DNA of 64,000 nt, taken from the NCBI RefSeq assembly GCF_036507355.1, contig NZ_AP027877.1. One strand, 5' to 3'. A program made the position numbers. Source of the DNA: Escherichia coli. GTDB taxonomy: Bacteria > Pseudomonadota > Gammaproteobacteria > Enterobacterales > Enterobacteriaceae. This document shows, piece by piece, positions 46,401 through 49,400 of the stretch (positions are counted from its first letter, which is position 1; every line of letters begins with the position of its first letter).

Positions 46401-49400
46401 TTCATCTTTGCCTGATCGGTGAAAGTAACAAAGCCTGCACCGTAAAATTTGGGTGTATCTTCAGCTGCACACAGGGCGCTAGCCAACTTACCGCCGGTGC
46501 ATGATTCGGCGGTAGTTAAGCGTAATTGATCCGTGATAAGTCTTTGACTCAACGCGGATGTCAGGTTTTCAATAGTGTCGGTATCTGCAAGCTGTACAAT
46601 TTTATCTTTATTAATGTTCACTGTTTTTTGTCCACGCTTTAATATGTAAAGGTGATTTGCTTTTTCTGTATGCTCGTCCAATATAATAATTTTCAAACAT
46701 ATAAATCCGATTATTCTGAAAATATGTTTAAGACTCTTCAATCTTCTTAACTTTAGTGAGTTAAATTCTCTGAATATTTGACAGCTAGTTGGCTGATTTT
46801 AAATGCCTTATAACAATTGGCAGAATTCTTATTTGGCAATTATAAAAATAGCAACCAGACTTAATAAGTCAAACCAAACGCAATTAAGGAGTTAGTATGA
46901 AATTTCAGGCCATTGTATTAGCAAGTTTTCTTGTCATGCCTTATGCGTTGGCAGATGACCAGGGCGGTTTAAAACAGGATGCAGCGCCACCGCCGCCTCA
47001 TGCAATAGAAGATGGCTATCGCGGAACCGATGATGCAAAAAAAATGACCGTTGATTTCGCAAAAACCATGCACGATGGCGCTTCGGTTTCACTACGCGGT
47101 AATTTGATTTCTCACAAAGGAGAGGGCCGTTACGTTTTTCGCGATAAGAGCGGTGAAATTAATGTCGTGATTCCTGCGGCCGTCTTTGATGGACGAGAAG
47201 TTCAGCCGGACCAGATGATCAACATTAGCGGCAGTCTCGATAAGAAAAGCGCGCCGGCCGTCGTTCGGGTCACTCATTTGCAGAAATAAAAATAAATTAG
47301 CCTGATGGCCTGAACTACTGGGCCATTAGGGTATTGGGTTATGCTATTTGTCATCCTTTTATTTACGATAATGCAGAGGTAATTTACAGAATTAAACACT
47401 TTTTTATCCGCTTATTTTGTTTTAAATCACAATGTTATCTCAGATATGACTCATAACTTCGGATTTCTATGAAAATATTGACGTAATTTTGCTTTTCTCT
47501 CGTTAGAATAACGCGCACAAGGAACTGTGAAAAAGGAGTGGCAATGATCAAGAAGACAACGGAAATTGATGCCATCTTGTTAAATCTCAATAAGGCTATC
47601 GATGCCCACTACCAGTGGCTGGTGAGTATGTTTCACAGCGTGGTCGCGAGAGATGCCAGTAAGCCAGAAATAACGGATAACCATTCTTATGGACTGTGCC
47701 AGTTTGGTCGGTGGATTGATCATCTGGGGCCACTCGATAACGATGAATTACCTTACGTTCGGCTAATGGATTCTGCCCATCAACATATGCATAACTGTGG
47801 TCGGGAATTAATGCTGGCTATTGTTGAAAATCACTGGCAGGACGCGCATTTCGCCGCTTTTCAGGAAGGGTTACTTTCTTTTACTGCGGCATTAACCGAT
47901 TACAAAATTTATTTGCTGACAATCCGTAGCAATATGGATGTTTTGACGGGATTGCCGGGGCGTCGGGTTCTTGATGAATCCTTTGATCATCAGTTACGCA
48001 ACACTGAGCCTCTGAATCTTTATTTAATGTTGTTGGATATTGACCGATTTAAATTGGTTAATGATACCTACGGGCATTTAATCGGCGATGTAGTATTACG
48101 CACCCTGGCAACTTACTTAGCCAGTTGGACGCGTGATTACGAAACGGTTTATCGCTACGGGGGCGAAGAATTTATCATTATTGTCAAAGCGGCTAATGAT
48201 GAAGAAGCATGTCGTGCAGGTGTCAGAATTTGCCAGTTAGTCGATAACCATGCCATCACACATTCTGAAGGGCATATCAACATTACCGTGACAGCAGGTG
48301 TCAGTCGCGCATTTCCTGAAGAGCCTCTGGATGTGGTCATTGGAAGAGCAGACCGGGCAATGTATGAGGGTAAGCAAACCGGAAGAAATCGCTGCATGTT
48401 TATTGACGAACAAAATGTGATTAACCGAGTTTAAGCTCCGTTTAACATTCATTGAGAAAACTGATGCTACTGTGTCAACGATCCGTTATCAGTGCAGGAA
48501 AATGCCTGTTAGCGTAAAAGCAAAACACAAATCTATCCATGCAAGCATTCACCGCCGGTTTACTGGCGGTTTTTTTCGCCGTCATAAAAATCAGGCCCCT
48601 TGTACACAACTGTAACAAGGGGCCGGTTAGGTGAGGGATTATCTCCGTTCATTAGTCATCCCATTTGTGGCTGAAATACGCGGCCAGAAAACCAGAAAAT
48701 AAAATTATTCCCAGTACGGCCATAAAAACATTCATATTACCCAGCATTATTTGCCTCCGTTTATGGTGTGGTGTGTTTCCTCGCTTACCTTAATTTTCAT
48801 CTCAATGAGAAACATATTAGCAGAGGTAACCTAAACGAAGGCTGAATTAAATTTTTATTGTGTTCGACTTAAATCAACAAAGCGCGGGCTGCCTCCACGG
48901 TCTTGCACGAATCCCTTTTAACATCAGCACCCACGCAGCAATAATCACCAACGCTAAGATGATAAACAGCGAGGAAGGCGGCAGGTTGGTTAGCACTAGG
49001 CCACTCACTAATGGGTTAATTGCGGCACCAAGCCAGCCTAAAGACTGGGCGGAAAAATAGCTGGCTTTCATTCCTGGCGGCGCAATATGGTCAATCAACA
49101 TATACTCGCCCGGCGCATAAATTATTTCACCGACAGTAAATACCGCAGCTGACATACCCCACAATAGCAGGCTGTTGCCGGAAAAAATAAAACCGACCAG
49201 ACCGATGACGAAACAGAGGGTGCCTGCTGTCATCAGCGCGCGGATGTTAGCCGGGTTAAGTCGGCGGCCCACGGAATATTGCAACGTAACTACCATGGCG
49301 GCATTCACCGGAAGAACAACCGCGACCACCTTTTCGGCAAAATCACCATCAGCAATCACCATCACATATTGTGAAATGCATGAAGCAAATGCGCCACTAA

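What the first reader, a model, noticed from the sequence alone, without database searches (positions are those of the whole stretch)
48440..48747. PhoP-type small RNA and 31-aa membrane protein locus between dgcZ and ydeE
A 31-codon ORF matching MgtS is intact on the minus strand. On the plus strand a strong intrinsic terminator lies about 98 nt downstream of a PhoP-box-like repeat, which fits the size of MgrR. Strand and exact ends of the RNA are my inference.
Basis: partly seen in the sequence, partly recalled or inferred. Interest (0 to 1): 0.3.

Follow-up and report, generated by a model that had tools for sequence, protein, structure and literature searches.

The report
Known mgrR sRNA and mgtS-mgtT locus

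Summary
The region is collinear with E. coli MG1655 dgcZ–mgrR–mgtT–mgtS–ydeE, read as the reverse complement.

- **mgrR** lies on the + strand at 48480–48576. It is 97 nt, against 98 nt in K-12. It matches Rfam RF01407 (STnc560) at 276.8 bits.
- **mgrR promoter.** A perfect PhoP box, GTTTA-N6-GTTTA, sits at 48429–48444. An extended −10 sits at 48465–48473.
- **mgtS** lies on the − strand at 48652–48747. It is identical to K-12 and scores 80.6 bits against the NCBIfam MgtS equivalog.
- **Correction 1.** The 98 nt is the length of the RNA, not the distance from the PhoP box to the terminator. The box ends 36 nt before the transcription start.
- **Correction 2.**
- **Correction 3.** The window has T7 where K-12 has T8 in the MgrR terminator tail. 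This shortens the U-tail by one base and frameshifts mgtT to 30 aa instead of 34. Only 20 of 5416 matching E. coli records carry the exact T7 90-mer. It may be a real slippage variant or a homopolymer sequencing error.

The locus is already known and of low interest.

The parts
48429..48444 (+). PhoP box of the mgrR promoter, GTTTA-AGCTCC-GTTTA, at -51 to -36 relative to the start. Its first half-site is the last codon plus the stop codon of dgcZ (GTT TAA).
   Evidence: It is the only exact match in the window, with 0.11 expected by chance. The promoter-proximal half-site cGTTTA is at least 95% conserved across 92 Enterobacteriaceae loci. PhoQ/PhoP dependence of mgrR is taken from the literature (PMC6239178; 10.1101/2021.06.30.450655).
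48465..48473 (+). Extended -10 element of mgrR, TGcTACTGT. It ends 6 nt before the annotated +1.
   Evidence: Read from the sequence. The positions TG-TA---T are conserved across genera. That it functions as the promoter is an inference.
48480..48576 (+). mgrR small RNA, 97 nt. It has a 5' stem-loop at 48484-48514, an A-rich ARN/Hfq region at about 48515-48532, the seed at 48534-48547 (U55-A68), a terminator stem at 48551-48570 and a U7 tail at 48570-48576.
   Evidence: Ends mapped from the MG1655 annotation. Supported by the Rfam RF01407 match and by folding. Seed and structure are as probed in PMC6239178. It differs from K-12 at C48483 (T in K-12) and in having T7 rather than T8.
48593..48627 (-). 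G+C-rich hairpin that is followed by AUUUUUAU on the minus strand only. It is the likely intrinsic terminator of the mgtS transcript and lies inside the mgtT ORF.
   Evidence: Perfect 10-nt arms (I1). Energy is -22.6 kcal/mol and 0 of 200 shuffles fold as well. On the plus strand no T-run follows it.
48560..48652 (-). mgtT, frameshifted allele of 30 aa (MNGDNPSPNRPLVTVVYKGPDFYDGEKNRQ). K-12 MgtT is 34 aa and ends ...EKKPPVNRR. Its start overlaps the mgtS stop as TAATG. Its last 17 nt are antisense to the MgrR terminator.
   Evidence: ORF listed. K-12 annotation b4775. The translation with T8 restored gives the 34-aa K-12 protein. PGAP labels the same T7 allele 'frameshifted' in strain 2013C-4187.
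48652..48747 (-). mgtS, a 31-aa small protein with one hydrophobic span. It is intact.
48755..48760 (-). Shine-Dalgarno sequence of mgtS (GGAGG on the minus strand).
   Evidence: Read from the sequence. This is an inference.
48814..48848 (-). Putative mgtS promoter. It has a degenerate PhoP box, aATTCAgccttcGTTTA (48848-48832), and a -10 element TAATAT (48819-48814) 12 nt downstream of the box.
   Evidence: ATTCAG-N5-GTTTA and TAnTAT are the conserved blocks upstream of mgtS in 42 loci from Escherichia, Salmonella, Citrobacter, Kosakonia, Phytobacter and Yokenella. PhoQ dependence of the mgtS-mgtT regulatory region comes from PMC11429745. The exact start site was not determined.

Best explanation
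This is the E. coli mgrR / mgtS-mgtT locus. It consists of two convergent transcription units, both activated by PhoQ/PhoP, that help the cell cope with low Mg2+.

On the plus strand, phospho-PhoP binds the box at 48429-48444 and activates a promoter with an extended -10. That promoter makes the roughly 98-nt Hfq-dependent sRNA MgrR. MgrR's single-stranded seed (48534-48547) pairs across the start codons of eptB and ygdQ and represses them. Repressing eptB changes LPS phosphoethanolamine modification.

On the minus strand, a second PhoP-type promoter drives mgtS. MgtS is a 31-aa small protein with one hydrophobic span. It raises MgtA importer levels and also acts on the PitA phosphate symporter.

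The start codon of mgtT overlaps the mgtS stop, so mgtT is probably translated by coupling. Its ORF runs through the mgtS terminator hairpin and into the antisense of the MgrR terminator.

What is shown here: sequence identity, coordinates, strand, motifs, structure, and conservation across related genera. What is taken from the literature: PhoP dependence, Hfq binding, the targets, and MgtS function. What is inferred: that the T7 allele leaves MgrR functional and alters only the poorly conserved C-terminus of MgtT.
For: - Rfam RF01407 STnc560 matches 48446-48658 on the plus strand at 276.8 bits, against a gathering score of 55.
- The MG1655 annotation lists ydeE, mgtS b4599, mgtT b4775, mgrR b4698 and dgcZ in the same order. 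The alignment shows 1 SNP and 1 indel within mgrR and no differences in mgtS.
- NCBIfam small_MgtS scores 80.6 bits.
- The locus is present in 5416 of 5426 complete E. coli genomes.
- The PhoP box is unique in the window.
- The predicted fold has a 5' stem-loop, an open centre and a terminator. This matches the structure probing in PMC6239178.
- The best predicted duplex between the MgrR centre and the eptB 5' region uses MgrR 55-68 against eptB -6 to +8. This is the published pairing region (PMC6239178).
- The seed 20-mer was found in 98 stretches of species-representative genomes, nearly all labelled Enterobacteriaceae. Among them, the promoter-proximal PhoP half-site, the -10, the seed and the terminator are conserved, and one terminator pair covaries among AU, GC and GU.
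- The literature reports that mgrR and mgtS are transcribed convergently and depend on PhoPQ (10.1101/2021.06.30.450655), that mgtS-mgtT form a PhoQ-dependent operon (PMC11429745), and how MgtT was discovered (10.1101/511675).
Against: Nothing contradicts the identification. There are four caveats.
- No expression data exist for this strain.
- The MgrR-eptB duplex energy (-17.6 kcal/mol) is not better than shuffled controls, since 136 of 1000 shuffles do as well. Pairing rests on the published experiments and on the seed being identical to K-12.
- The PhoP box ends at -36, further upstream than in the mgtS promoter, where the box lies 12 nt from the -10.
- The U-tail is one base shorter than in K-12, and mgtT is frameshifted.
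Confidence: 0.96

Rival explanations
1. The T7 run, and with it the mgtT frameshift and the 97-nt MgrR, is a homopolymer error in sequencing or assembly. On this reading the strain carries the ordinary T8 allele with an intact 34-aa MgtT.
For: Only 20 of 5416 E. coli records carry the exact T7 90-mer. The strains that do differ widely in host and genome size, as expected for sporadic errors. The records most similar to the window over this locus have T8.
Against: Slippage in an 8-base run is also a common real mutation. T-run lengths of 5 to 9 occur naturally among Enterobacteriaceae species. E. whittamii MgtT ends ...KKNRQ, in the same frame as this allele. The sequence alone cannot decide between the two.
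Confidence: 0.45
2. The plus-strand RNA is the longer species of about 213 nt implied by the Rfam STnc560 model boundaries (48446-48658). It would start upstream of 48480 and read through to the second hairpin.
For: The Rfam model aligns end to end over 48446-48658 and includes the second hairpin as a conserved stem.
Against: The curated K-12 gene is 98 nt (PMC6239178). Model positions 1-34 cover the conserved extended -10 promoter element. The first terminator is strong and is followed by seven U's. The second hairpin has no U-run on the plus strand but does have one on the minus strand. The second hairpin region is not conserved in genera that lack an adjacent mgtS. The model boundaries probably reflect how the Salmonella candidate was originally delimited; that is my inference.
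Confidence: 0.05
3. MgrR is a dual-function RNA that encodes the hydrophobic 31-aa plus-strand ORF at 48539-48634 (MQAFTAGLLAVFFAVIKIRPLVHNCNKGPVR).
For: The ORF exists and is hydrophobic.
Against: Its start codon lies inside the seed, and most of the ORF lies beyond the MgrR terminator. It has no family match. Translating the ORF by hand with the T8 run that nearly all E. coli records carry shifts the frame and gives a different 25-aa product, so the peptide is not conserved.
Confidence: 0.01

Closest known systems
MgrR sRNA of E. coli K-12 (b4698; Rfam RF01407 STnc560)
   Same: It has the same position downstream of dgcZ and the same strand. It also shares the PhoP box, the 5' stem-loop, the ARN stretch, the seed (U55-A68) and the terminator stem.
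   Different: Position 4 is C rather than U; this base is unpaired and lies outside the seed. The 3' tail is U7 rather than U8, giving 97 nt instead of 98 nt.
MgtS (YneM) small membrane protein, b4599, NCBIfam NF033842
   Same: The 31-aa sequence is identical. It is also convergent with mgrR and has the same upstream PhoP-type promoter block.
   Different: The coding sequence is the same. There are two SNPs in the upstream region relative to K-12, both outside the conserved box and the -10.
MgtT, b4775 (small protein found by ribosome profiling, 10.1101/511675)
   Same: It has the same TAATG overlap with the mgtS stop and the same first 27 residues.
   Different: The A/T-run is one base shorter. 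The C-terminus is therefore ...EKNRQ (30 aa) instead of ...EKKPPVNRR (34 aa). NCBI's PGAP annotation pipeline marks this allele as a frameshifted pseudogene.
mgrB, another PhoP-activated E. coli gene encoding a small membrane protein
   Same: It is a small membrane protein induced under low Mg2+ in a PhoQP-dependent manner (PMC11429745).
   Different: The sequence and the target are unrelated. From general knowledge, MgrB feeds back on PhoQ. It has no paired sRNA.

Membership tests
MgrR / STnc560 (Rfam RF01407) | Covariance-model score above the curated gathering threshold | tested here: met
   276.8 bits against a threshold of 55, E = 3.4e-63, full model 1-214, plus strand.
MgrR / STnc560 (Rfam RF01407) | Orthologous position and strand relative to the curated K-12 gene | tested here: met
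   b4698 maps to 48480-48576 on the plus strand, downstream of dgcZ and convergent with mgtS.
MgrR / STnc560 (Rfam RF01407) | PhoP box upstream of the promoter | tested here: met
   Perfect GTTTA-N6-GTTTA at 48429-48444, with 0.11 expected by chance. The proximal half-site is conserved across genera.
MgrR / STnc560 (Rfam RF01407) | Induction by low Mg2+ through PhoQ/PhoP | not testable with these tools
   Known for K-12 (PMC6239178, citing Moon and Gottesman 2009). It needs a northern blot or a reporter in this strain.
MgrR / STnc560 (Rfam RF01407) | Seed region (U55-A68) complementary to the eptB start region | tested here: met
   The seed is identical to K-12. The best duplex pairs MgrR 55-68 with eptB -6 to +8. 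The energy alone is not better than shuffles (136 of 1000).
MgrR / STnc560 (Rfam RF01407) | Hfq-binding modules: an internal ARN stretch, and a Rho-independent terminator with a U-tail | tested here: met
   The ARN stretch is identical to K-12. The terminator folds at -13.7 kcal/mol and is followed by U7; K-12 has U8. Actual Hfq binding was not testable.
MgtS (NCBIfam NF033842) | Equivalog HMM score above the cut-off, over the full length | tested here: met
   80.6 bits against a cut-off of 35, residues 1-31 of 31. The coding DNA is identical to b4599.
MgtS (NCBIfam NF033842) | PhoP-type promoter upstream | tested here: met
   A conserved ATTCAG-N5-GTTTA block lies 12 nt upstream of TAATAT. 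PhoQ dependence was shown in K-12 (PMC11429745).
MgtS (NCBIfam NF033842) | Raises MgtA levels; interacts with PitA | not testable with these tools
   Literature only (10.1101/2021.06.30.450655, and references cited in PMC11429745).
MgtT (b4775) | Start codon overlapping the mgtS stop, in the same operon | tested here: met
   TAATG at 48650-48654 on the minus strand.
MgtT (b4775) | Intact 34-aa product ending ...KKPPVNRR | tested here: not met
   The T7/A7 run shifts the frame and gives 30 aa ending ...EKNRQ. PGAP annotates the same allele as frameshifted.

The most novel reading that the evidence does not exclude
The T/A homopolymer shared by the MgrR terminator tail and the mgtT coding frame may act as a slippage-prone switch. 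T7, T8 and T9 all appear to occur among E. coli genomes. A length change would at once alter MgrR termination and Hfq-tail length and the MgtT C-terminus. Separately, read-through mgtS-mgtT transcripts, being antisense to the 3' end of MgrR, might titrate or destabilise MgrR. Either would couple the two convergent PhoP outputs.
Probability: 0.07. Interest if true: 0.35.

Novelty: already known. Interest (0 to 1): 0.08.

Why it matters
It matters little beyond correct annotation. The locus is a textbook part of the PhoQ/PhoP low-Mg2+ response: MgrR acts on eptB and so on LPS modification and antimicrobial-peptide sensitivity, and MgtS acts on MgtA and PitA and so on Mg2+ uptake.

Three points are useful in practice.
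- Automatic annotation usually omits mgrR. PGAP lists no ncRNA here in the RefSeq records I inspected.
- Three genes, not two, share these roughly 300 bases, with a sense/antisense overlap.
- A single homopolymer base decides whether mgtT is annotated as a gene or as a pseudogene.

Tried and rejected
- **Strict PhoP-box pattern.** KGTTTA-N5-KGTTTA with up to 1 mismatch found only a spurious match inside the terminator, because the real box has A and C at the two K positions. The relaxed core pattern with up to 1 mismatch was no better than chance, with 4 found and 4.7 expected. Only the exact core is informative.
- **Counting T7 alleles with a short query.** A 61-nt megablast query returned nothing, probably because of low-complexity masking. 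A 90-nt query worked.
- **Whole-length duplex folding.** RNAduplex of full MgrR against a 210-nt eptB segment gave an uninformative structure full of large loops. I restricted it to the single-stranded centre of MgrR.
- **Consensus folding across genera.** RNAalifold on 91 orthologues recovered only the terminator stem. The 5' stem-loop region aligns poorly between genera, so I did not obtain covariation support for it. Its support is the Rfam consensus structure, single-sequence folding, and the published probing.
- **Shared 9-nt inverted repeat.** TCATTGAGA occurs in both promoter regions. About 0.5 such pairs are expected by chance in 521 nt, and the mgtS copy is conserved only in Escherichia. 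I rejected it as a shared operator.
- **Papers not held.** Moon and Gottesman 2009, Wang 2017 and Yin 2019 could not be read in the library. Statements about them come second-hand from papers that cite them.
- **Plus-strand 31-aa ORF at 48539-48634.** Rejected; see the rival explanations.

Full report
**Observation**

- A 31-codon minus-strand ORF lies at 48652-48747 and encodes MLGNMNVFMAVLGIILFSGFLAAYFSHKWDD.
- A plus-strand intrinsic terminator has its stem at 48551-48570, with 8 pairs (6 G-C), followed by a T-run. It folds at -13.7 kcal/mol, and 0 of 200 shuffles fold as well.
- A perfect direct repeat, GTTTAAGCTCCGTTTA, lies at 48429-48444. It is the only exact GTTTA-N6-GTTTA in the 64 kb window, against 0.11 expected by chance.
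- Looser versions of the motif are uninformative.

**Identity**

A scan of the whole window against Rfam gave a full-length match to RF01407 (STnc560, an Hfq-binding RNA) at 48446-48658 on the plus strand. It scored 276.8 bits against a gathering score of 55.

Megablast of 48400-48860 found the locus in 5416 of 5426 complete E. coli genomes, under the annotations dgcZ, mgtT and mgtS.

The curated MG1655 record lists, in order:
- ydeE
- mgtS (b4599, 1622646-1622741)
- mgtT (b4775, 1622741-1622845)
- mgrR (b4698, 1622817-1622914, opposite strand)
- dgcZ

Aligning the window to the reverse complement of that stretch places the features as follows:
- mgrR at 48480-48576 on the plus strand
- mgtS at 48652-48747 on the minus strand
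- the K-12 mgtT stop codon at 48549-48551

The MgtS ORF matches the NCBIfam equivalog small_MgtS at 80.6 bits against a cut-off of 35, and its DNA is identical to K-12.

**Anatomy of mgrR**

- The PhoP box spans -51 to -36 relative to the annotated start. Its first half-site is the final GTT codon plus the TAA stop of dgcZ.
- An extended -10 element, TGcTACTGT (48465-48473), ends six bases before the start.
- The RNA folds into a 5' stem-loop (48484-48514), an unstructured A-rich centre, and the terminator.
- This matches the nuclease-probing model of PMC6239178. That paper also gives the 98-nt length, the (ARN)5-like Hfq motif, the U55-A68 pairing region and the U8 tail.
- In window coordinates the seed is 48534-48547, and it is identical to K-12.
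- Against the MG1655 eptB 5' region, the best duplex of the MgrR centre uses exactly nucleotides 55-68. It pairs with eptB -6 to +8, across the start codon.
- The duplex energy is not better than shuffled controls (136 of 1000 do as well). This check supports the location of pairing, not its significance.

**Conservation of mgrR**

The 20-nt seed string occurs in 98 stretches of species-representative genomes. They include Escherichia, Salmonella, Citrobacter, Enterobacter, Klebsiella, Raoultella, Kluyvera, Kosakonia, Leclercia and Lelliottia.

Across 92 extracted loci, the following are conserved:
- the promoter-proximal half-site cGTTTA
- a CATTGAG block
- the TG-TA---T positions of the -10
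- the ARN stretch and the seed
- the terminator

The terminator stem pairs in at least 89 of 91 distinct sequences at every position. Its inner pair covaries among AU, GC, GU and UG.

**The minus strand**

mgtS has a GGAGG Shine-Dalgarno sequence. Upstream of it, two blocks are conserved in 42 loci from six or more genera: aATTCAgccttcGTTTA, and TAATAT 12 nt downstream. I read this as a degenerate PhoP box in the canonical position overlapping the -35. [quoted passage not shown]

Downstream of mgtS lies a strong hairpin at 48593-48627. It folds at -22.6 kcal/mol, and 0 of 200 shuffles fold as well. It is followed by AUUUUUAU on the minus strand only. I interpret it as the mgtS terminator.

K-12 annotates a 34-aa ORF, mgtT. 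Its ATG overlaps the mgtS stop (TAATG). It runs through that hairpin, and its last 29 nt are antisense to the MgrR terminator.

MgtT was found by ribosome profiling and detected as a tagged protein (10.1101/511675). It is PhoQP-dependent, is not membrane-localised, and shows no deletion or overexpression phenotype (PMC11429745).

In the cross-species set, an ATG overlapping the mgtS stop is found in most of the loci with an adjacent mgtS; the Kluyvera loci lack it. The ORF length, however, ranges from 7 to 83 aa. The conserved N-terminal NRPLV...KGP stretch coincides with the GGCCCC/GGGGCC hairpin arms. Conservation of the peptide may therefore be a by-product of conservation of the terminator. 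This last step is my inference.

**The one peculiarity of this window**

The T-run at the end of the MgrR terminator has seven T's. MG1655 and the closest genomes have eight.

This has two consequences:
- MgrR is 97 nt with a U7 tail.
- mgtT is frameshifted to 30 aa, ending ...EKNRQ instead of ...EKKPPVNRR.

PGAP marks the same allele as a frameshifted pseudogene in strain 2013C-4187.

Only 20 of 5416 E. coli records carry the exact T7 90-mer. Those listed differ widely in host and genome size. One record aligns over two extra bases, which would fit T9 (H57); I did not inspect that alignment.

Among Enterobacteriaceae species the run is mostly 8 or 9 but ranges from 5 to 9. E. whittamii MgtT ends in the same frame as this allele.

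I cannot tell a real slippage variant from a homopolymer sequencing error, and I rate the two as about equally likely. Either way I expect MgrR to remain functional. That expectation is an inference, since seven U's is within the natural range.

**Rivals**

- *A longer RNA.* The Rfam model boundaries suggest a roughly 213-nt RNA. However, the first 34 model positions cover the conserved promoter, and the second hairpin has a U-tail only on the other strand. I take the 98-nt K-12 annotation as correct.
- *A plus-strand peptide.* The hydrophobic 31-aa ORF at 48539-48634 is frame-dependent on the T7 allele and has no family match. I reject it.
- *A shared operator.* The 9-nt inverted repeat in the two promoter regions is at chance level.

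**Verdict**

The finding is real and was interpreted correctly. It is the known mgrR / mgtS-mgtT locus. The only additions are the overlooked mgtT gene and a rare one-base homopolymer variant of uncertain authenticity. Novelty: already known. Interest: low.

Noticed in passing
window 36073-36271 (+); 28809-29201 (+); 31711-32096 (+): Other Rfam matches above gathering score: IS009 (221.5 bits) and two cspA-type thermoregulator leaders (158.8 and 112.8 bits). The latter suggest paralogous cold-shock genes, as found in a Qin-like prophage region.
   Followed up: no
window 48449-48457 and 48800-48808: A perfect 9-nt inverted repeat, TCATTGAGA / TCTCAATGA. One copy lies between the PhoP box and the -10 of mgrR. 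The other lies just downstream of the putative mgtS -10. About 0.5 such pairs are expected by chance. The mgrR copy (CATTGAG) is conserved family-wide, while the mgtS copy is conserved only in Escherichia.
   Followed up: partly
L103 8046-8743 (E. coli KV7); L003 1-315 (E. coli 2013C-4187): In some E. coli strains IS1 is inserted between mgtS and ydeE, in the mgtS promoter region, or into dgcZ. In strain 90-3040 ydeE is a pseudogene. The window has none of these.
   Followed up: no
L016 1436-1455 and 3030-3049: Enterobacteriaceae bacterium RIT691 carries two copies of the MgrR seed 1.6 kb apart. Only one of them is next to an mgtS. This may be an mgrR duplication.
   Followed up: no
L010, L017, L069: Contigs labelled Caldithrix MAG, 'Proteobacteria' MAG and Chryseobacterium sp. 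contain the exact enterobacterial MgrR seed, and L069 also has an MgtS ORF. This is probably contamination or mis-binning in those assemblies.
   Followed up: no
window 40000-60000: The best match of this 20 kb to any of 5426 complete E. coli genomes is only 98.7% identical. Parts of it match thousands of plasmid places, which points to a repeated, IS-like segment somewhere in this stretch. The source strain is not closely represented in the collection.
   Followed up: no
window 48593-48627 within the mgtT ORF 48560-48652 (-): The apparent mgtS terminator hairpin lies inside the mgtT coding sequence. Transcripts that terminate there would carry an mgtT ORF with no stop codon. Full-length MgtT therefore needs terminator read-through into the mgrR antisense region.
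   Followed up: partly
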